Shown: piece by piece, positions 1-12,971 of the stretch
Layout: every line of letters starts with the position of its first letter
Numbering within the stretch: position 1 is the first letter of the stretch
Made by a program: the position numbers and the translations under genes
Notes under the pieces: model-generated
Told to the model about the DNA's origin: nothing
Database searches by the model: none
The model's input: only the letters and a program-made list of their open reading frames with translations
DNA from: a virus
Lineage: Duplodnaviria; Heunggongvirae; Uroviricota; Caudoviricetes
IMG/VR virus record: IMGVR_UViG_2547132278_000011
Location: 1-12,971 of that record
Reading direction: 5' to 3' (one strand)
Length of the DNA stretch: 12,971 nt

Positions 1-1060
<1,060 letters not shown>

Positions 1061-2525: not shown

Positions 2526-3266
2526 TTAATTAGATAGGGGATCAATAAACCGCCGTGCTTCTTCCAGTTCTTCTGGAAAGTGGTCGGAAATAAGGCGCTC
2601 TGGAACGATTTCCATTAGCCAGATAGCGGAGAAAATTGCGCGTATGCGCTTGCTGCGAGGGATGGTGCGCAAACGCTCCAGAATCCACTCAAAATAGCTT
2701 TCCTGGATCGGGTTGAACTGCATGTCTCCTATATGCTTAAAGCTAACCAGAGAGTCATCCAGACGGGTTGTTGCGCGTCTGGCTAATTTCTCTTCAAATA
2801 TCTCAATCAGTTCTGGCTGCCACAAATGCTGTGGGCGAGGCAGCTTGTCCCACAGACGTCGTGCAGCTGCGGAAAGAACGGTGGAGATAAAGTAGTCGTA
2901 TGAGCAGCAATAGCGGTCAGCAAACTGGCGTGATTTCCATAGCGACGTTTTATTGGCAGTCGACAACTCCTGATAAGGCAGGCGTTTTAACCCGGTGGTG
3001 AACGGAGCTGTTTCAAAGTGTTCGCGACCGTGCGTCAGCATGATATTTGAGTACTGACGTTTGTATGCCTCCGTAAACAGACAGGTGGCCATAAGAGGAT
3101 GCATGTCGCGGTAATCAAACCACTTCGTATCGAAGAGTTCAGCCTCGTCTTTGCAGCGCGACAAACCAATGTTTTCAGCAACCCACTTATCCATAACAGC
3201 GGTATTCCACTCTGTCATGAAGTCGTACTGGTCGTTGTCGATGGTGTCGAAAAAGATTTGGCTCAT
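2526..3266 (-). CDS. Hypothetical protein, first gene of the replication operon (possible helicase-associated factor; function unknown)
   Basis: 246-aa ORF taken from the ATG at 3266 (AGGTGA 6 nt upstream) rather than the GTG at 3275 in the ORF track. Ends 43 nt before the helicase start on the same strand. No recognisable motifs. Confidence 0.5.
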   Translation of the reverse strand: MSQIFFDTIDNDQYDFMTEWNTAVMDKWVAENIGLSRCKDEAELFDTKWFDYRDMHPLMATCLFTEAYKRQYSNIMLTHGREHFETAPFTTGLKRLPYQELSTANKTSLWKSRQFADRYCCSYDYFISTVLSAAARRLWDKLPRPQHLWQPELIEIFEEKLARRATTRLDDSLVSFKHIGDMQFNPIQESYFEWILERLRTIPRSKRIRAIFSAIWLMEIVPERLISDHFPEELEEARRFIDPLSN

Positions 3267-3444
3267 GTGGCTCACCTGGTAGGTAGTTACTTACTTATCA
3301 CAATGAGCTGATGATAGCGATTGGTGGCAGTTTTTGGAAGTGGAAACGGAAGGGAGTTGTTCTGGTGGGTATCTTTTGAAAGACCTGCTTCCGTATATTT
3401 AATAAGTTACTTATTATTTATATACAGAAACAGGTCATGAATAC

Positions 3445-5139
3445 TTAATTATTAAGCAATCTGCTCACACGTAGTTTGTTAAGACTTGATCTAGAGGCCA
3501 GTTTCGTTAATGCACCTATTGCTTTATTCGTGATTTTTTGCTGTTCTTCTGTTAGTTCTTGCATACTTTTGAATCTGAGCAACCCCTTTCTCACTAAATC
3601 CAAAGCATCCTGATTGCGGGATAATATCCACTTTAAATAATCATCTTCAGAGAAACTGTTAAGATATGCTATGTCACTATGATTAAATTTGCCTTCAATT
3701 ATTTTGTATAAAACATTCTCTAAATTAGTCTCTTCAGGCTTCTTATCCATCAATTTTTTTTGAATTAGCAGACCTAACTTTTCGTTACCAAATATCTCTA
3801 CATACAAATTCCGAAAAGCAGTATAAGCATCATCTTGGCTAACAAAGGCATCTGCATATGCCTCTATATAACTATCACAATCAATCTCCAATCTATTTAA
3901 GATATCAATCAAGCCTATGAAGTGAGCAACAGGTATGTGTGAAAGATTGTCGTTAATTACACATTTTATCTTAGAAATAAACTCAGATTCATTGTCCTTG
4001 AATGAGTCACTAAAAATATCCCAAACATTGTTAACCTCACATAAAGCCTTGTGTTCTTTATATTGTTTATTTTTTTCTTCTATTATACCTCGAATATTGC
4101 TTTCAGTAGAAAGATAACCATTCTTGAGATAAAAATCTATGTCATCATCGAAAGCAATTTCCGCTCGTTCATAAATAATATCAAGACTATTAATAAATGA
4201 ATATACAGAATCATCCTTTTTATCATCTAACATGTAATCAAATACATGTATGTTTTTAATTGATTCTTTAAACAAGGCATAATCAACACCTGGAACACCA
4301 GAATAGTAAACCACTGAAAACAGAACCAATCTATTGATAAAACTTTCTCTAACCTTATCCTCTGCCAAGCTTAGCTCATTCCTAAGATTAACCAGAGATG
4401 TTTTTATTTTATTTAATATACGGATATTTTTAATGCCTAAGTCATTTGCTAAGACTTTTAACAAAAGAAAATCAGAATCAGTTTCATAAAAAACTTTACG
4501 TAAGTTCTTCTCAGGCGTAGGATCGTATTTTATTTCGACATCAATTACTTTTTCTCTGTACTCTAAAAACTGTTTTTTTGCAGTTTCATCATGTAAATTA
4601 TCTTCATTTAAAATTAGAACAACTTTGCAACCTTTTCTTCTTGCTAATTCATCAATTACCCCCATAATTTCTTTAACTTCTAGCGAATTACCTTTTCTTT
4701 CAACATCATCAATACAAACCAAATAATTATTAACAAATTTATACTCAAGAGATGACAGCAGGTTATCTGTTTTGAACCCAAAAAAATCGTTCTTTCCGAA
4801 ATGTATTAAAAATTTTGACAAGGAGTTGTATTTCAACCATCCCCAAAACCCATTTCTATAACGAATCATAGTTCGATCCGTTTCAGATAAAATTAGTTCT
4901 TTATATTTCTTTTCATTAATTGGTGTGGCACAATGATAAAGAGTTTTTTTAATATCACCAATAGAGTTAACCCCAAACAAAGAAACATACGAATATGCAT
5001 TAAAATCTAATCCTTCAGAATGCTTAGTATAAAAACTATTCCAATAATGAGTTTTACCAACGCCCCAATCTCCTTTTATGACGGCAACCCGATGATCTGA
5101 AACTAGAAAATTTTTTAGAAATGATTCTATCGATTCCAT
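3445..5139 (-). CDS. KAP-like P-loop NTPase, soluble, with a ~370-aa C-terminal helical domain of unknown function; candidate horizontally acquired defence/abortive-infection gene
   Basis: 564 aa from the ATG at 5139 (the ORF-track start at 5148 is TTG). Walker A VIKGDWGVGKTHYW (KAP-type G-x-WG-x-GKT), Walker B-like LVCIDDVERK, then VVLILNED. No hydrophobic transmembrane helices between Walker A and B. Sampled 60-nt lines give 23-25% G+C (for example 4381-4440 = 14/60) against about 53% in the neighbouring parA region (5701-5760 = 32/60). Confidence 0.65.
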   Translation of the reverse strand: MESIESFLKNFLVSDHRVAVIKGDWGVGKTHYWNSFYTKHSEGLDFNAYSYVSLFGVNSIGDIKKTLYHCATPINEKKYKELILSETDRTMIRYRNGFWGWLKYNSLSKFLIHFGKNDFFGFKTDNLLSSLEYKFVNNYLVCIDDVERKGNSLEVKEIMGVIDELARRKGCKVVLILNEDNLHDETAKKQFLEYREKVIDVEIKYDPTPEKNLRKVFYETDSDFLLLKVLANDLGIKNIRILNKIKTSLVNLRNELSLAEDKVRESFINRLVLFSVVYYSGVPGVDYALFKESIKNIHVFDYMLDDKKDDSVYSFINSLDIIYERAEIAFDDDIDFYLKNGYLSTESNIRGIIEEKNKQYKEHKALCEVNNVWDIFSDSFKDNESEFISKIKCVINDNLSHIPVAHFIGLIDILNRLEIDCDSYIEAYADAFVSQDDAYTAFRNLYVEIFGNEKLGLLIQKKLMDKKPEETNLENVLYKIIEGKFNHSDIAYLNSFSEDDYLKWILSRNQDALDLVRKGLLRFKSMQELTEEQQKITNKAIGALTKLASRSSLNKLRVSRLLNN

Positions 5140-5160
5140 TAGTATCAATCCTTTAATTCA

Positions 5161-5189
5161 TATATTGGGCGTAACAAACGCCCAATATA
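5161..5189. repeat. Perfect 11-bp inverted repeat with 7-bp spacer (tatattgggcg-taacaaa-cgcccaatata) between the partition-gene stop and the NTPase start
   Basis: Read directly: 5161-5171 is the exact reverse complement of 5179-5189. Lies 2 nt past the stop of the 5191-5550 gene and 22-50 nt upstream of the ATG at 5139. Not followed by a clean U-tract on either strand. Confidence 0.9.
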
Positions 5190-5190
5190 A

Positions 5191-5550
5191 TCAACCTTTC
5201 TTCATCAACTCTCGTTTAATTTCATCGGTACGCATCGTAACGTCGGCAGCTGTGATCGCCTCGTTAAGCTTCACGATGTCCTCGATTTCCTGCGGTGACT
5301 TCTCTGCCAGATGGAAAATGGCTGCTCGAATCACGTCAGAACGAGTGAACTTCTCGAAGCGAGGGATGAACTTCATCATCTCCAGCAGTTCGAAGTATTC
5401 GTCTTCCAGTGACATTGTGCGGCTTTTAATTTTCTCTTTGCCACGAGTCGGGCGTCCCTGTGGTCTGACTGGTTGGCGCAAAGGAGTTGTGTTCTTAGCC
5501 GGTGCATCAGGCTCTTTGCGCTTTGCTAGGTCACCCATTTTCATGGACAT
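5191..5550 (-). CDS. Small partition/centromere-binding-like protein (ParG-like, putative ribbon-helix-helix) coupled to ParA
   Basis: 119 aa. Basic, Pro/Arg-rich flexible N-terminus (KRKEPDAPAKNTTPLRQPVRPQGRPTRGKEK) followed by a possible RHH segment (RTMSLEDEYFELLEMM). Its ATG overlaps the parA stop by one base (TAATG at 5548-5552). Confidence 0.55.
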   Translation of the reverse strand: MSMKMGDLAKRKEPDAPAKNTTPLRQPVRPQGRPTRGKEKIKSRTMSLEDEYFELLEMMKFIPRFEKFTRSDVIRAAIFHLAEKSPQEIEDIVKLNEAITAADVTMRTDEIKRELMKKG

Positions 5551-6218
5551 TATTCTTCTTCCTCCAGACTCAACAGATAATCTACAAATTCTTCAAACTC
5601 GGCTTCCGCCTTTTTGTCGCGCTCGCTACCGGTCATTTCAAAGATAGAACGACCAGACTCTTCCGCATCATCATAGACGTTGCGGTTATATAGATTGACT
5701 GGCGCAGACTCGATGCCAAACGTCTCAACAATCTCTTTAGCCGCCAGAATGCGAGACACTTGTGATGGCAAAGCCGGGCACTGGTTCATGACCGCGCGGA
5801 CCTTCACTTTATCGTTTACATTGCGAACATTGTCGATAATAGGATCGATGTCACGTAAAGATTTCAAATCACGACGCTTAGGACGCAGCGGGATAATGAT
5901 AACGTCAGCCATCAGCATCGCTTGTCGCTGAATTTCGGAGTCGAAGCCACCAGCATCTACCACTACAAACTCAGCTCTACCCTGAAGCGATTTTAGGTGC
6001 TTAATGATGTCATCCTGAACGTATGCAAAAGGAATCAGCTCAAGGTCTTCGTTCTGTCGACGGTCTTCACACCAGCTTGTTGTCGTGCGCTGAATATCTA
6101 TATCAGTGATATAAACCTTCTTCTTCTTTTTGACTTTCAGGCAAACGGCAATTTGCTGGGCAACGGTGGATTTGCCAGGCCCGCCCTTTGTGCCGCCAAC
6201 CACAAAGATCTTGGTCAT
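5550..6218 (-). CDS. parA: ParA/MinD-family partition ATPase (small type Ib-like ParA)
   Basis: 222 aa. Deviant Walker A VVGGTKGGPGKSTVA near the N-terminus, FVVVDAGG Walker B-like motif, acidic C-terminus. AAGGGA about 9 nt upstream of the ATG at 6216-6218. Confidence 0.8.
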   Translation of the reverse strand: MTKIFVVGGTKGGPGKSTVAQQIAVCLKVKKKKKVYITDIDIQRTTTSWCEDRRQNEDLELIPFAYVQDDIIKHLKSLQGRAEFVVVDAGGFDSEIQRQAMLMADVIIIPLRPKRRDLKSLRDIDPIIDNVRNVNDKVKVRAVMNQCPALPSQVSRILAAKEIVETFGIESAPVNLYNRNVYDDAEESGRSIFEMTGSERDKKAEAEFEEFVDYLLSLEEEE

Positions 6219-6366
6219 TGGAGAGTTCCCTTTGCGTATATAATTATCGTCTGAAACAACTTGTTTTCTTATATGTGATATAGCCTAAATGCCTACGGCT
6301 GTGGTGTAAAGGTTAAATGGTAGGTGCTGCCTTAGAATTTTTAGGCGAGAATCAATGGCTGTTAAC

Positions 6367-6389
6367 AAAAAAGGCGACCAAAGTCGCCT
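6367..6389 (-). terminator. Rho-independent terminator for the minus-strand two-gene operon
   Basis: GC-rich stem ggcgac (6373-6378) / gtcgcc (6383-6388) with a 4-nt loop; on the minus strand it is followed by UUUUUU (6372-6367), directly after the stop of the 250-aa gene at 6395-6397. An A-run/T-run on both sides means it could act in both directions. Confidence 0.6.
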
Positions 6390-6394
6390 GATTT

Positions 6395-7147
6395 TTAATC
6401 TTTTAGGTATAAACCTACTGGAGTTCTTGTTTTGCGGGAGATGATAAGTACGATAAATTTCTGAACGTTAACTTGCACTTTGTTTGGGAGCCAAGAGCTT
6501 AACTCTGCATCAAGCAACAATCCTCTGTTCCACGGCAAAAATCCGGTTTCTTTCCCCATCCCGTACTCACCTAACACATCCTCGAACGTTTCTGTTTTGG
6601 CATTGTATATACGCACATCGCCGGTTCGCATGAGAGGCCCTGCCCAGATCTTAGCACCAGGAATGGTTTGTGTATCGTCGCAGACTAAATGCTCATACCA
6701 ATGAAGAAGAAAGAGATAGGTACGGTGACACAATCCTCGCTGACGACGCTCTCTGACAGTTTCGACACCGGCTACCTGGTAACATTCGATCTCATTACCG
6801 TCTTCAACAAAACTATATTCACGCAGAGCTATCCTACCAGCGATCGTATTTTTGTTTTCGTCCAGAAGCCCGGACTGGAGCACCTCTTTGATAATCTCTT
6901 CTTCAGGGGCATCTTCATCCGCTCGATCTAAGATGAATTCGCTCAGGTCGCCTTGGTCGCGCGCACCTACAAGTTCCATAGAGACATACAGGCAAATGTC
7001 ATCTTCTGGTTCAATGATTTCAATTTCTGAGATTTTATAGAGGGAGGCTTCATTGATAAGAAAGCCAAAACGAACAACACGAGTCTCCCCTTTATGAGGA
7101 AACTCGCTTAGATCTTTTGAATATGCGCTATCTAGTGTAGGAGCCAT
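6395..7147 (-). CDS. Hypothetical protein (250 aa), second gene of an insulated two-gene operon
   Basis: ATG at 7145-7147 lies 16 nt inside the 3' end of the upstream 127-aa gene (overlap ATGGCTCCTACACTAG), with an in-frame TGA 12 nt before it, so this is a separate, translationally coupled ORF. Acidic N-terminal third (DRADEDAPEEE). No recognisable catalytic motifs. Confidence 0.6.
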   Translation of the reverse strand: MAPTLDSAYSKDLSEFPHKGETRVVRFGFLINEASLYKISEIEIIEPEDDICLYVSMELVGARDQGDLSEFILDRADEDAPEEEIIKEVLQSGLLDENKNTIAGRIALREYSFVEDGNEIECYQVAGVETVRERRQRGLCHRTYLFLLHWYEHLVCDDTQTIPGAKIWAGPLMRTGDVRIYNAKTETFEDVLGEYGMGKETGFLPWNRGLLLDAELSSWLPNKVQVNVQKFIVLIISRKTRTPVGLYLKD

Positions 7148-7515
7148 TTTGTAGCAGAATCATCAGCCTTAACCGTGCTGACAATGCTACCATGATTGCG
7201 TAAGAAGCGGCGAATAGAATGTTCAATAACCTCCGAAAAAGCCTCGATAAAACGAGACAGCTCAGGGTACTGTTTAGCTGGCTTGACTACAAAACGAACA
7301 CGACCATTCAGGTAAATTGCTTCAGCTAATGGCTTCACGCTTGCACCAGCGCGCTCAACATCGTCTTTGAAGGTAACGATGAAGCGTGAGTCTTCCGGTT
7401 CAATAGCGTCATTATTGAGCTTACGTACTTCAAGCTTGTGCTGATTCAGCACATGAGTCTCGATAATACTCGTGCAATCGCGAATAGTTTGTATAGAACG
7501 TTTCTCGTTCAGCAT
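7132..7515 (-). CDS. Hypothetical protein (127 aa), first gene of the two-gene operon
   Basis: ATG at 7513-7515 with a strong Shine-Dalgarno AAGGTGG about 5 nt upstream. Preceded by a ~225-nt non-coding leader containing three hairpins. No recognisable motifs. Confidence 0.6.
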   Translation of the reverse strand: MLNEKRSIQTIRDCTSIIETHVLNQHKLEVRKLNNDAIEPEDSRFIVTFKDDVERAGASVKPLAEAIYLNGRVRFVVKPAKQYPELSRFIEAFSEVIEHSIRRFLRNHGSIVSTVKADDSATKWLLH

Positions 7516-10415: not shown

Positions 10416-12971
10416 TTATTCTTTAGGTGAATTTAACTTCGTTTCAAGCTCCTCAACCCTTTTGGTCAATTGCTGAATATGATGAATGAGTGGTACAACC
10501 AAACGCTCATACATCACTCCTTCAGCGACCATACCATTTGAGGAAATATCTTCTGGAGAATCATTATTTGTTGGTTCACGCCAATGGACATATTGCGGGG
10601 CAATCTCACCAACCTCTTCAGCAATAAGGCCGTAATACCCCCAATCCTTTCGGTCACCTCGACAAATTGAACGATACCAAACAGGTCTTAATGACAAAAG
10701 TTCATCAGCATATCGATCTTGTAATGTTTCAATATCCTTTTTATAGCGCCTTGAAGACGTTGAACGCCAAACTGTATTGATACCTGGGTTTGGATCAATG
10801 TACATATTGGCACCGCTAGTAGTTGTGCCAATATCCCATATAGCAAACCCTCCACTACCGCCTGATTTGACAACCAGTGTTTCAGCAACAATATCCAGGT
10901 TGCCACTATAGCCTGTCAGTGATGATCTGCTTGCATAGGAACTTAGAAGGTTTGCTACCTCTGTTTTCGTGTAAGCATTAAGGTTAGCCGCAGTCAAAGT
11001 TATATCGGCAGAGCCATCAAACGCCACACCAGCAATTTTCCTTGCTGTCTGCAATTTTGTGGCGGTTGCGGCATTACCAGTAGTGTTCTGATTACCAGTT
11101 GTATTCACACCAGGGATTGAATCCTTAGCGGTATATACCTGCGCCCACGCTGACCATGCCGCACCTGTGTAATCTCTTCGGGAGCGAATGAAAACCGGCG
11201 CATGTGCACCGCTCGTACCACTCCAGCCAATAAGCAACTCGCCCTCACCAGCAGCACTCGCACCTTTCATGTGCAATACGTTGCCATACGTGGTCGGGTA
11301 GCTATTGTTGTACGCCTCATACATTTGAATGCCAGCAGTGCCTTGAGTAGAGCCGCTTAACGCCGTAACTCGGCCACGAGATACCAATGTATTAATGTTG
11401 ATATCGCCTGAGCCATCAAACTTAACACCATTGATGTTTCTCGCTGTTTGCAACTTCGTAGCTGTTGAAGCATTACCGTTCAAACTACCATTTACGCCAC
11501 CAGTAACATTTAGTCCATTACCAATGGACACAGCACCGCTGGTATTGTTAATTGTAATCGGTCGCAAACCGTTCCATGAACCTAATGTGTCTCCTGATGC
11601 TGTTAGCAGGAAATATGTGTTCGCCCCATCATTACGGATAAAGAACCCAAAGTTACCGTAAGCAATGCGGAAACCATTTGCATATTTTGAAACGATCTCA
11701 CCAGAAGACGTTAACCCTCCAGATAATGTGCCACCTGAAAGCGGTAATGCTCCTACATCAGAAGCTGTTGGTTTGTTTCTGGTGTTATAAGAACGACGCC
11801 AGCCTGGCGCATAATCACTTCCATTGTACACATAAATAAATTCCGCATTATTAACACCACCATGACCCGATGTTGTTGTCGTTGTAACACGAATAGTGTA
11901 ATGGCTTGTTGCCTTATTACTAAACACCTCAATCACGGAACCAGATAGATCGATCCTACCGCAACCAGTGTCGTCTATATAATTATTGTTGGCGTAAGCC
12001 CATGAGCACCGTGCAATCCAATATTTGTTTGAAAATGCACCCTGATTATTTAGCCACGTTATAAACTGAGCAGTCGTAAATGCTGTTCCGTTACCACTAT
12101 TTAACCATCCGGCGGCAGCGGTTGGTGCGTTTATATCAGCCGGCTGAGGCATAAATCCAGTCGTGTAAACCTGCTCCCAACCACTTTCAAAACCATAGCC
12201 ATCTCTTGAGGAACGGTAGAACAGACCACCATTTTTATAGTGAGCTTTAATTTGAAGCGTACGGCAACTACCTACACCGGTATAAAAGTTGGCAAGAATA
12301 TAACTAGCGCCTGCTCTAGTTACATTGTAAGCACCAGATTCAGCATTCCACGGCACGCCACCATCAGCATCCGCATATGACCCTGTTGCCCTTCTTGCGA
12401 AAGCGGCAACATGCGCAGCGGTTAAAGTGATATCAGTAGAACCATCAAATGGAACACCGGATATTTTTCTTGCAGTCTGAAGTTTTGTAGCAGTTGCAGC
12501 ATTACCAGTGGTGTTCTGATTACCCGTAGTGTTTACACCTGGAAGGTTAATATTTGCAGAACCGTCGAAAACAACTCCACCGATAGATCTTGCCGTCTGC
12601 AATTTCGTGGCTGTACTTGCATTACCATTCAATGAACCAGTTAATCCACCTGTAACAGACAACGGACCTGAAACTGTTCCTCCGGTTGTTGGCAGTGCTC
12701 CAATATCTAACGGCGTCGGTTTCTGATGTGTGCTATACATCGTATAAACAACACCATCGGTAACGCTGGAAGGCTTACTCGCTGAATATGTTGGCGAGGT
12801 ATAAATAGAAACTGTCGCATTTGCAGTACAATCCCAATGGATATTTACACGAGTCGCATAATTGCCAATCTCAACGTAAATATCATATGTATCGCCGGAT
12901 GTGTTGATCCAGGCGAAATTCGTTAATCCGACAGCTGTACGCTTCCACAAAGCACCTGTAATCCCTTTGGG
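10416..12971 (-). CDS. Phage tail fibre protein, 5'-partial (N-terminus beyond the window), with repeated tail-fibre motifs and a C-terminal peptidase S74-type intramolecular chaperone domain
   Basis: The frame is open from the window edge; the ORF-track start at 12950 is a TTG artefact. Four copies of the N-A/T-S/A-TATKLQTAR motif, each followed by ...FDGS...; two copies of a larger module PGVNTTGNQNTTGNAATATKLQTARKI-GV-FDGS-DITLTAA. C-terminal SSRRYKKDIETL ... GLIAEEVGEIAP ... VEELETKL matches the conserved Ser/Lys auto-cleavage region of S74 chaperone domains as I recall it. Confidence 0.9.
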   Translation of the reverse strand, partial: PKGITGALWKRTAVGLTNFAWINTSGDTYDIYVEIGNYATRVNIHWDCTANATVSIYTSPTYSASKPSSVTDGVVYTMYSTHQKPTPLDIGALPTTGGTVSGPLSVTGGLTGSLNGNASTATKLQTARSIGGVVFDGSANINLPGVNTTGNQNTTGNAATATKLQTARKISGVPFDGSTDITLTAAHVAAFARRATGSYADADGGVPWNAESGAYNVTRAGASYILANFYTGVGSCRTLQIKAHYKNGGLFYRSSRDGYGFESGWEQVYTTGFMPQPADINAPTAAAGWLNSGNGTAFTTAQFITWLNNQGAFSNKYWIARCSWAYANNNYIDDTGCGRIDLSGSVIEVFSNKATSHYTIRVTTTTTSGHGGVNNAEFIYVYNGSDYAPGWRRSYNTRNKPTASDVGALPLSGGTLSGGLTSSGEIVSKYANGFRIAYGNFGFFIRNDGANTYFLLTASGDTLGSWNGLRPITINNTSGAVSIGNGLNVTGGVNGSLNGNASTATKLQTARNINGVKFDGSGDININTLVSRGRVTALSGSTQGTAGIQMYEAYNNSYPTTYGNVLHMKGASAAGEGELLIGWSGTSGAHAPVFIRSRRDYTGAAWSAWAQVYTAKDSIPGVNTTGNQNTTGNAATATKLQTARKIAGVAFDGSADITLTAANLNAYTKTEVANLLSSYASRSSLTGYSGNLDIVAETLVVKSGGSGGFAIWDIGTTTSGANMYIDPNPGINTVWRSTSSRRYKKDIETLQDRYADELLSLRPVWYRSICRGDRKDWGYYGLIAEEVGEIAPQYVHWREPTNNDSPEDISSNGMVAEGVMYERLVVPLIHHIQQLTKRVEELETKLNSPKE

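What the first reader, a model, noticed from the sequence alone, without database searches (positions are those of the whole stretch)
3380..5190. AT-rich single-gene island encoding a soluble KAP-like P-loop NTPase between the partition and replication modules
Sampled stretches of this ~1.8-kb segment give 23-25% G+C against about 53% in the flanking partition genes, and the drop coincides exactly with one 564-aa gene. That points to recent horizontal acquisition. The protein has a KAP-type Walker A (GDWGVGKT) and Walker B-like IDDVER but none of the transmembrane inserts typical of KAP NTPases, plus a ~370-aa C-terminal helical domain I cannot assign. Stand-alone NTPases in variable slots of phage-plasmids are typical of anti-phage or abortive-infection cargo, so this is the best candidate here for an undescribed single-gene defence system. 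A perfect 11-bp palindrome sits just upstream of its start.
Basis: partly seen in the sequence, partly recalled or inferred. Interest (0 to 1): 0.8.

Follow-up and report, generated by a model that had tools for sequence, protein, structure and literature searches.

The report
Soluble KAP-type NTPase in defence slot
An AT-rich single gene in an SSU5-like E. coli phage-plasmid encodes a membrane-anchor-free KAP-type ATPase fused to a helical repeat domain; it sits in a swap-in slot that holds known anti-phage genes in sister elements, so it is a credible but untested single-gene phage-defence candidate of a known kind.

Summary
One 564-aa gene (3445-5139, minus strand) has 30.6% G+C against about 46% in the backbone, not 23-25% against 53%.

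The protein passes Pfam KAP_NTPase narrowly. It has GDWGVGKT and IDDVER motifs, no transmembrane segment, and an all-helical C-terminal half with no specific fold match.

The window is an SSU5-like phage-plasmid. The gene fills a slot bounded by the parB-like stop codon and a conserved long hairpin. In relatives, the same slot holds PD-T4-3, DUF2971/PDC-S31, or unknown genes. Only about 23 of 241 related plasmids carry this gene.

Klebsiella and Salmonella relatives carry 40-44% identical alleles in the same slot, while backbone proteins are 82-94% identical.

The family has about 1,700 clusters at 50% identity. It always shows the same two-domain architecture, occurs as a solitary gene, and is AT-rich wherever checked. 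It is a sister family of the PADLOC candidate PDC-S49.

Low G+C is therefore a family trait, not proof of recent acquisition. The "palindrome" is a terminator-like hairpin that each cargo type supplies in its own version.

Verdict: a plausible, untested PifA-like or STAND-like single-gene defence, and a new member of a known kind.

The parts
3445..5139 (-). CDS of the 564-aa KAP-like P-loop NTPase (WP_000443723.1, annotated 'P-loop NTPase fold protein'); stop codon at 3445-3447.
   Evidence: ORF list and translation. Pfam KAP_NTPase 24.8 bits. PHROG 4740 matches full length, E = 7e-166. Identical in 8 PLSDB plasmids. RefSeq annotation.
4375..5139 (-). Residues 1-255: the NTPase core plus helical lid, with an AAA+/STAND-like fold.
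5050..5073 (-). Walker A, GDWGVGKT (residues 23-30).
   Evidence: G23, W25, G26, G28, K29 and T30 are invariant in 36 homologues.
4696..4722 (-). Walker B strand and KAP-type DD[LV]ER motif, LVCIDDVER (residues 140-148).
   Evidence: C142, D144, D145, E147 and R148 are invariant. This is the only region that aligns with PifA in hhalign.
4756..4872 (-). Residues 90-128: a cationic, acid-poor, aromatic-rich insert between Walker A and Walker B. Canonical KAP proteins carry transmembrane hairpins at this position.
   Evidence: pLDDT below 50 at residues 93-126. Composition is K+R 16%, D+E 5%, F+W+Y 13%, against 13%, 16.5% and 11% in the rest of the protein. No TM-grade hydrophobicity.
3448..4374 (-). 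Residues 256-564: an all-alpha, solenoid-like C-terminal domain, the putative sensor. It is found only in this architecture.
5161..5189 (-). Hairpin with 11-bp perfect arms and a 7-nt spacer, starting 2 nt after the parB-like stop codon. It is probably the terminator or insulator of the par operon, carried by the cassette.
   Evidence: Sequence. Fold about -19 kcal/mol, z = -4.0. Other cargo types have different hairpins at the same place.
5149..5153 (-). Shine-Dalgarno-like AAGGA, 9 nt upstream of the ATG.
   Evidence: Read directly. No sigma-70-like promoter above chance lies upstream.
3382..3436 (-). Conserved long hairpin followed by a U-run. It marks the 3' boundary of the variable slot in all relatives, including SSU5.
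   Evidence: Alignment A3. Fold -28.7 kcal/mol, z = -8.4.
5191..6218 (-). Backbone partition genes that form the 5' boundary of the slot: parA (5550-6218) and a 119-aa parB-like gene (5191-5550).
   Evidence: Pfam MipZ/CbiA/ParA hits for the 222-aa protein. Annotations of relatives. Homology among relatives ends at the stop codon, 5191-5193.
2526..3275 (-). Conserved 249-aa backbone gene of unknown function, downstream of the slot and followed by the DnaB-like helicase (1142-2482).
   Evidence: It is 85-98% identical in relatives.

Best explanation
The segment is a one-gene cargo cassette in a defence hotspot of an SSU5-type phage-plasmid. Its product is a soluble KAP-type (AAA+/STAND-like) P-loop NTPase fused to an alpha-solenoid domain.

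The most likely function is a single-protein anti-phage or superinfection-exclusion system that protects the lysogen.

Proposed mechanism (inferred, not shown):
1. The fast-evolving helical C-terminal domain recognises a phage protein.
2. Recognition licenses nucleotide-dependent oligomerisation of the NTPase. The motifs involved are Walker A K29, Walker B D144/D145, and putative arginine-finger and sensor-2 residues R195 and R240.
3. No nuclease, protease, TIR/SIR2 or pore domain is present. The output would therefore be the ATPase assembly itself. It could sequester or remodel the phage target, or burn ATP. Alternatively it could act at the inner membrane through the cationic aromatic loop that replaces the usual KAP transmembrane hairpin. 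PifA, the TM-less KAP protein of F, aborts T7 infection at the membrane in this way.

The gene is probably transcribed by read-through from the par operon or from a weak promoter of its own. The upstream hairpin would act as an attenuating terminator.
For: Shown:
- KAP membership by Pfam, with intact and invariant NTPase motifs.
- An AAA+/STAND-like fold.
- No TM segment.
- A C-terminal alpha-solenoid with no catalytic fold.
- A fixed architecture in about 1,674 representative clusters.
- Purifying selection, dN/dS 0.23. The C-domain changes faster at the protein level (dN 0.19 against 0.055), although its dS is also higher.
- The slot holds PD-T4-3 in PhiR41_1 and pTB212, and DUF2971/PDC-S31 in SSU5 and Cyrano.
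- Cargo frequencies in PLSDB are 136, 26, 23, 13 and 7 records.
- Backbone proteins are 82-100% identical, but the occupant is only 40-77% identical across E. coli, Salmonella and Klebsiella relatives.
- Homologues are solitary genes with no conserved partner. They sit in an ICE, in IS or integrase islands, or as lone insertions. One lies next to a DUF2971 gene.
- The only PADLOC hits are to PDC-S49.

From the literature:
- KAP NTPases fused to unknown C-terminal regions defend in a Walker B-dependent way (PMC12632615, PMC13552941).
- PifA is a TM-less KAP protein that acts at the membrane (PMC13001434).
- PD-T4-3 has been reported in SSU5 clade J phage-plasmids (10.1101/2025.09.12.675607).
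Against: - No experiment has been done on this protein or family, and no paper mentions it.
- The PADLOC match is weak and partial. It scores 76 bits and covers residues 3-223 against a 624-position model. PDC-S49 is itself only a candidate.
- No effector domain was found, so the killing or blocking step is conjecture.
- Several chromosomal homologues sit among housekeeping genes rather than in recognisable defence islands.
- The R195 and R240 role assignments rest on secondary-structure order only.
- No promoter was identified.
- I did not verify that all 136 PD-T4-3 plasmid hits lie in this same slot.
Confidence: 0.55

Rival explanations
1. The gene is accessory cargo directed at other mobile elements or at host defences rather than at phages. 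It could exclude competing plasmids or phage-plasmids, act as an anti-defence factor, or modulate a host pathway. The same sensor-plus-ATPase logic would apply.
For: Phage-plasmids carry both defence and anti-defence genes. One homologue lies inside the conjugation gene cluster of a Salmonella ICE. No effector domain is present. Carriage is widespread in clinical S. sonnei and E. coli phage-plasmids.
Against: The alternative occupants of the slot that can be identified are defence genes or defence candidates, not anti-defence genes. KAP NTPases with a known phenotype are anti-phage.
Confidence: 0.2
2. The gene is a replication- or partition-associated AAA+ switch, like Orc1/Cdc6, TnsC or MuB. 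It would work with the neighbouring par and rep modules of the phage-plasmid.
Against: About 90% of related phage-plasmids that share the slot edges lack the gene, and unrelated genes replace it. The C-terminus is an alpha-solenoid with no winged-helix match. Homologues occur alone in chromosomes far from any replicon functions. Identity is 40-77% while the par and rep proteins are 82-100% identical.
Confidence: 0.07
3. The gene is a selfish or silenced passenger. It would be an AT-rich xenogeneic gene kept silent, for example by H-NS, with no benefit to the element or host. Alternatively it could be a toxic addiction-type gene.
For: G+C is 30% in a 46% backbone, and the family is AT-rich wherever it was checked. 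No recognisable promoter was found. No partner gene is conserved.
Against: The ORF is intact in hundreds to thousands of assemblies. dN/dS is 0.23 between alleles. NTPase motifs are invariant across 27-77% identity. Diverged alleles recur in the same slot.
Confidence: 0.1

Closest known systems
PifA of the F plasmid (KAP family; excludes phage T7 by abortive infection at the membrane)
   Same: Both are plasmid-borne single proteins with a KAP-type P-loop and no transmembrane helices (PMC13001434). They share the DDL[DE]R Walker B and the following Y..K region. Both have a long, non-catalytic C-terminal part.
   Different: The two are not demonstrably orthologous. hhalign gives 31% probability over 83 columns only. 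PifA is 741 aa against 564 aa here, and the C-terminal domains do not align. PifA has a regulator, PifC, next to it. Triggers and phenotype are unknown here.
KAP P-loop NTPase single-gene defences found with the RADS pipeline (EF_KAP and three metagenomic proteins; PMC12632615, PMC13552941)
   Same: The architecture is a KAP NTPase followed by a roughly 300-aa region of unknown function. Those proteins give experimentally shown, Walker B-dependent phage defence.
   Different: EF_KAP is modelled with two transmembrane helices and comes from Bacillota. The window protein has none and belongs to a Gammaproteobacteria-centred family. I made no sequence comparison because those sequences are not held here.
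PADLOC phage-defence candidate PDC-S49
   Same: It is the only PADLOC family hit by all 36 homologues. It is a single gene of similar length, about 620 aa. In distant family members the match extends to about 430 residues.
   Different: Scores are low (76 bits here, at most 87 elsewhere). For the window protein only residues 3-223 match. The family is therefore a sister family and not a member. To my knowledge PDC-S49 is a computational candidate without published validation, and no paper in the library mentions it.
Bacterial STAND/NLR-like defence NTPases (Avs) and RADAR RdrA
   Different: No effector domain is present. Pfam nSTAND3 scores 16 bits against a cut-off of 27.2. The protein is much smaller than Avs proteins.
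[quoted passage not shown]
   Same: It is a single-protein NTPase defence without a classical effector. It acts through ATP turnover and a membrane-linked physiological collapse (PMC13001434).
   Different: It belongs to a different NTPase family and has two TM helices inside the P-loop domain. No PADLOC Tmn hit was found here.

Membership tests
KAP family P-loop NTPase (Pfam PF07693) | Score at or above the Pfam gathering threshold. | tested here: met
   24.8 bits against a cut-off of 20, covering residues 12-254 and model positions 12-278 of 293. The margin is narrow. Precomputed hits for some homologues are 'weak' or 'faint'.
KAP family P-loop NTPase (Pfam PF07693) | Walker A GxxGxGK[ST] and Walker B hhhhDD[LV][DE]R. 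| tested here: met
   GDWGVGKT at residues 23-30 and LVCIDDVER at 140-148. These are invariant in 36 homologues. The Walker B region aligns with PifA.
KAP family P-loop NTPase (Pfam PF07693) | Transmembrane helices inserted between Walker A and Walker B. This is typical of the family but not universal, and PifA lacks them. | tested here: not met
   The maximum 19-residue hydropathy is 1.35, and at most 1.6 family-wide. An insert of about 40 residues is present but is cationic and aromatic, not hydrophobic. PifA also lacks TM helices according to PMC13001434.
PADLOC PDC-S49 (single-gene phage-defence candidate) | Near full-length, high-scoring match to a PDC-S49 HMM. | tested here: not met
   Best hit is PDLC05031, E = 5e-22, 76 bits, residues 3-223 against model positions 8-214 of 624. 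The best of 36 homologues reaches 2e-29. Distant members cover at most about 430 positions at no more than 87 bits.
PADLOC PDC-S49 (single-gene phage-defence candidate) | Stand-alone gene with no obligatory partner. | tested here: met
   No neighbour is conserved across phage-plasmid, ICE, island and chromosomal contexts.
STAND NTPase defence proteins (Avs-like) | A STAND-type NTPase recognised by family models, plus a dedicated effector domain. | tested here: not met
Orc1/Cdc6-type AAA+ initiators or TnsC/MuB-type DNA-bound AAA+ switches | A C-terminal winged-helix or DNA-binding module, and conservation as a core replicon or transposon function. | tested here: not met
Validated anti-phage defence system (any) | An experimentally shown reduction of phage infection that depends on the gene. 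| not testable with these tools
   No literature exists on WP_000443723, PHROG 4740 or PDC-S49. The evidence is contextual only.
Defence-hotspot cargo of SSU5-type phage-plasmids | Alternative occupants of the same slot, with fixed boundaries, include known defence genes. | tested here: met
   Boundaries are fixed at the parB-like stop codon and the conserved hairpin. Occupants include PD-T4-3 (E = 1.6e-23, GIY-YIG) and PDC-S31/DUF2971 (E = 3e-41). The published survey reports PD-T4-3 in SSU5 clade J.

The most novel reading that the evidence does not exclude
The most novel reading is this. The roughly 1,700-cluster family of soluble KAP-type NTPase plus alpha-solenoid proteins would be a widespread, effector-less, single-protein anti-phage system. 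Current detection tools would miss it. Its killing or blocking activity would be the ATP-driven assembly itself, acting by target sequestration, ATP drain or peripheral membrane attack through the cationic loop that replaced the KAP transmembrane hairpin.

The family would also be a major cargo of clinically dominant SSU5-type phage-plasmids. One allele occurs in more than 1,000 assembly blocks and is named from Shigella sonnei, possibly the epidemic pWPMR2-like lineage, in which DefenseFinder reports no defence system.

A further speculative point concerns the slot itself. Cassettes there are exchanged precisely between a stop codon and a conserved hairpin, and each cassette brings its own leader hairpin. 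This hints at a structured cassette-exchange site.
Probability: 0.3. Interest if true: 0.6.

Novelty: new member of a known kind. Interest (0 to 1): 0.4.

Why it matters
If the protein is confirmed as a defence, three things would follow:

- **A new defence family.** It would add a large, fixed-architecture family to the recently validated class of KAP NTPase defences. The family is mainly Gammaproteobacterial among the named members.
- **A tractable model.** The protein is soluble and has no effector domain. That makes it a workable system for asking how an NTPase sensor can stop a phage without a nuclease, protease or pore.
- **Clinical relevance.** Common clinical phage-plasmids of E. coli, Shigella, Klebsiella and Salmonella would be shown to carry defence cargo that surveys based on DefenseFinder currently score as absent. 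This bears on phage therapy and on the success of these lineages.

The slot is also useful in itself. It is defined to the nucleotide, so its unknown occupants (a 225-aa gene and a 140 + 250-aa gene pair) can be mined as further candidates.

Tried and rejected
- **NCBIfam:** no hit.
- **PDB sequence search with the family profile:** no hit at E ≤ 1.
- **Rfam on the whole window:** nothing.
- **Sigma-70 promoter scan of 3200-6500:** 8 sites against 10.6 expected by chance, and no convincing promoter for the gene.
- **Foldseek against PDB with the full model:** only weak, NTPase-driven hits with TM-scores of 0.27 or less.
- **PifA homology:** hhalign gives 31% probability, so I rejected membership of a PifA orthologous group.
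- **PDC-S49 membership:** rejected on coverage and score.
- **G+C change-point scan:** it ran into its search bounds and I discarded it. I used homology breakpoints instead.
- **F plasmid accession AP001918:** not in the collections, so I used NC_002483.
- **Literature searches for PDC-S49, PDC-S31, PHROG 4740 and WP_000443723:** nothing found.
- **pWPMR2:** I could not obtain the sequence, so I could not confirm that it carries this gene.
- **'Recent acquisition' inferred from G+C:** rejected, because the family is AT-rich in every host checked.
Full report
**1. Observation**

The window has a gene-sized trough in G+C. In 300-bp windows it falls to 28-34% between about 3450 and 5250, against 47-50% on either side.

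The trough coincides with one minus-strand ORF at 3445-5139 (ATG start), encoding 564 aa. The gene is 30.6% G+C (GC3 25%). The rest of the window is 45.9%, and the adjacent backbone genes are 47-49% with GC3 of 50-57%.

The protein has GDWGVGKT at residues 23-30 and IDDVER at 143-148. No segment reaches transmembrane-grade hydrophobicity, either here (maximum 19-residue Kyte-Doolittle mean 1.35) or in 35 homologues (maximum 1.6).

The 'palindrome' is an inverted repeat with 11-bp perfect arms and a 7-nt spacer at 5161-5189. It starts 2 nt after the stop codon of the upstream parB-like gene. As RNA it folds at about -19 kcal/mol, z = -4.0.

**2. What replicon this is**

The window matches SSU5-type phage-plasmids at 96-97% identity over the shared backbone. 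These include Escherichia phages CMS-2020a, Cyrano and PhiR41_1. SSU5 itself matches at 82%.

The minus strand reads, in order:
- tail fibre;
- lysis cassette;
- two unknown genes;
- parA (222 aa, with MipZ/CbiA/ParA hits);
- a 119-aa parB-like gene;
- the NTPase;
- a conserved 249-aa gene;
- a DnaB-like helicase;
- a primase gene cut by an IS100 end at 1-351.

**3. The slot**

Homology among relatives stops exactly at the parB-like stop codon (5191-5193). It resumes at a conserved long hairpin at 3382-3436, which folds at -28.7 kcal/mol (z = -8.4) and is followed by a U-run.

Different elements carry different cargo between these two points:

| Cargo in the slot | Examples | PLSDB records |
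|---|---|---|
| 255-aa GIY-YIG protein on the opposite strand, matching PADLOC PD-T4-3 (E = 1.6e-23) | PhiR41_1, pTB212 | 136 |
| DUF2971 protein matching PADLOC PDC-S31 (E = 3e-41 and 2e-33) | Cyrano, SSU5 | 26 |
| This KAP-like NTPase | window and relatives | 23 (19 at ≥97.8% nt, 4 at about 83% nt) |
| 225-aa unknown gene | a S. sonnei plasmid | 13 |
| 140-aa + 250-aa unknown pair | CP090273 | 7 |

These rows rest. In all, 241 records share the slot edge.

PD-T4-3 is an experimentally selected E. coli defence gene (Vassallo et al. 2022, from my own knowledge). A published survey also finds PD-T4-3 in SSU5 clade J phage-plasmids (10.1101/2025.09.12.675607). The slot is therefore a defence hotspot.

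Each cargo type brings its own strong hairpin immediately after the parB-like stop codon. The stems are 12-13 bp, the folds are -17 to -25 kcal/mol, and the sequences are unrelated between cargo types. It is best read as a par-operon terminator or insulator, not as an operator of the NTPase gene.

**4. The protein**

*Family matches*
- Pfam places it in KAP_NTPase just above threshold, 24.8 bits against 20.
- PHROG 4740 (unknown function) matches end to end.
- NCBIfam has nothing.
- PADLOC hits only PDC-S49, and only over residues 3-223 (76 bits).

*Conserved residues.* An alignment of 36 full-length homologues (27-77% identity) shows these invariant or near-invariant positions:
- GxWGxGKT;
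- an AYSYxSxFG motif;
- Y139, C142 and DDxER;
- K169 and C171;
- YREK..D at 194-200;
- N238, R240 and K244;
- in the C-terminal half only scattered residues: G341, W373, W504, G519, L520, F523, N554 and R557.

*N-terminal structure*
- The AlphaFold2 model has pLDDT 83.5.
- It shows an AAA+/STAND-like core plus lid for residues 1 to about 255.

*The insert.* Residues 93-126 are disordered in the model. This is where KAP proteins normally carry transmembrane hairpins. Here the insert is cationic and acid-poor (K+R 16%, D+E 5%) and aromatic-rich.

*Arginine residues.* From the order of secondary-structure elements, R195 (just before strand 5) and R240 (in the lid helix) sit where AAA+ proteins have the arginine finger and sensor 2. 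This is an inference. I could not inspect coordinates.

**5. The family**

A profile of the C-terminal domain alone was searched against 1.84 billion representative proteins. It finds 1,674 proteins at E ≤ 1e-3 and 201 at E ≤ 1e-30. The domain always lies at about residues 250-560 of 550-600-aa proteins, and shorter hits are fragments. The two domains are therefore a fixed pair with no domain shuffling.

Distant members match PDC-S49 models over up to about 430 positions, but at no more than 87 bits. The family is a sister of PDC-S49, not a member.

Homologues are solitary genes in varied contexts:
- inside the conjugation cluster of a Salmonella salamae ICE;
- beside IS66 and T5orf172 genes in Oleispira;
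- near an integrase and a PIN gene in a metagenomic contig;
- next to a DUF2971 gene in a Pseudomonadales MAG;
- as lone insertions among housekeeping genes in Pragia, Ectopseudomonas and Vreelandella.

No partner gene is conserved. The homologues are AT-rich relative to their surroundings in every context I checked: 31% against 55%, 27% against 45%, 35% against 40%, 31% against 48% and 30% against 49%.

**6. Evolution in the slot**

SSU5-like phage-plasmids of Klebsiella and Salmonella carry 40% and 44% identical alleles in exactly the same slot. A second E. coli allele is 77% identical.

The flanking ParA, ParB-like, 249-aa and DnaB proteins are 82-100% identical in those same comparisons.

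Between the two E. coli alleles dN/dS is 0.23. dN is 0.055 in the NTPase half and 0.19 in the C-terminal half.

The gene is therefore functional and under purifying selection. Its occupant sequence turns over far faster than the backbone, and most of the change is in the putative sensor half. This pattern is typical of immune genes.

It also shows that low G+C does not date the acquisition.

One 99%-identical variant (P0003, named from S. sonnei) is indexed in 1,142 blocks of the assembly collection, mostly on 50-200-kb contigs.

**7. Interpretation**

The best-supported reading is a single-protein anti-phage or exclusion system of the KAP NTPase kind. I put this at about 0.55.

Precedents:
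- PifA of F is a TM-less KAP protein that aborts T7 infection at the membrane (PMC13001434).
- KAP NTPases fused to roughly 300-aa regions of unknown function protect Enterococcus in a Walker B-dependent way (PMC12632615 and PMC13552941).
- Tmn shows that an effector-less NTPase can defend through ATP turnover.

The mechanistic chain runs from sensing by the solenoid, to oligomerisation, to an ATPase-driven block or membrane effect through the cationic loop. All of it is inferred.

Rivals are:
- a function in competition between mobile elements or in anti-defence (0.2);
- a silent or selfish passenger (0.1);
- a replication or partition AAA+ switch (0.07). Absence from about 90% of relatives and the lack of a DNA-binding module argue strongly against this one.

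**8. Novelty**

No paper in the library mentions this protein, PHROG 4740 or PDC-S49. Both the class (single-gene KAP NTPase defences) and the setting (defence hotspots in mobile elements) are known.

I file it as a new member of a known kind and as a good candidate for testing. Interest is 0.4.

Noticed in passing
window 1-351 and 332-1132: The first 351 bases are the end of an IS100 (IS21-family) element, 99-100% identical to copies in many phages and Yersinia. It truncates the 3' part of the primase gene, leaving a 266-aa ORF where relatives have about 371 aa. This copy of the phage-plasmid may therefore be impaired in replication.
   Followed up: partly
window 6395-7515: There is a second variable slot between parA and the lysis genes. 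Here it holds 250-aa and 127-aa proteins with no Pfam or PADLOC hit. Cyrano, S. sonnei FDAARGOS_524, pTB212 and some carriers of the NTPase have a TacA/TacT (KacAT, DUF1778 + GNAT) toxin-antitoxin pair instead. The two slots assort independently.
   Followed up: partly
window 3382-3436: A 55-nt, near-perfect long hairpin (-28.7 kcal/mol, z = -8.4) followed by a U-run is conserved in all relatives, including SSU5. It marks the 3' edge of the cargo slot. It could be a terminator, a recombination landmark or a centromere-like site.
   Followed up: partly
window 5161-5189; L003 4960-5025; L008 5230-5292; L009 4932-4985; L001 4855-4916: Every cargo type has a different strong hairpin (12-13 bp stem) beginning 1-8 nt after the parB-like stop codon. 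The position and shape are the same but the sequences are unrelated. The cassette boundary is therefore the stop codon itself, and each cassette supplies the par-operon terminator.
   Followed up: yes
window 3276-3381: The intergenic stretch upstream of the conserved 249-aa gene is almost invariant among E. coli relatives and largely conserved in SSU5. It may hold the promoter or operator, or origin-related sites, of the replication module.
   Followed up: no
L015 9849-10613: In a Pseudomonadales MAG, a DUF2971 gene lies directly downstream of the NTPase homologue. DUF2971 is the family that occupies the same slot in SSU5 and Cyrano and matches PADLOC PDC-S31. The two candidate defence genes therefore also co-localise outside phage-plasmids.
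   Followed up: no
L004 10001-11779: A 35% identical homologue sits inside the conjugation gene cluster of a Salmonella enterica subsp. salamae ICE, between TraG/DtrJ-like and RAQPRD-family genes. It has 31% G+C against 55% in the flanks.
   Followed up: partly
L009 4261-4938; L008 4068-5235: Two other occupants of the slot have no Pfam hit and no convincing PADLOC hit: none for the 225-aa and 140-aa proteins, and only marginal PADLOC hits (E about 1e-3) for the 250-aa protein. They are a 225-aa protein (13 plasmid records) and a 140-aa + 250-aa pair (7 records). By position they are further uncharacterised defence candidates.
   Followed up: partly
window 3448-5139 (allele comparison with L011): Synonymous divergence between the two E. 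coli alleles is about twice as high in the C-terminal half (dS 0.79) as in the NTPase half (dS 0.36). This suggests a mosaic or recombinant history within the gene rather than uniform divergence.
   Followed up: no
window 6372-6389: A symmetrical GC-rich hairpin with T-runs on both strands (a bidirectional terminator-like site) lies just upstream of parA, between the par operon and the second variable slot.
   Followed up: no
window 12163-12971: The 3' part of the tail-fibre gene is mosaic. It matches side-tail-fibre genes of unrelated phages (phi458 at 97%, and 9g, ev099 and mEp332 at 79-83%), which indicates exchange of host-range modules.
   Followed up: no
phage records H75-H85: Proteins related only in the NTPase half (26-29% identity) occur in Burkholderia phages, Bacillus SPbeta-like phages and Campylobacter CJIE4 prophages. 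Relatives of the KAP-like NTPase half are therefore recurrent prophage cargo well beyond Enterobacteria.
   Followed up: no
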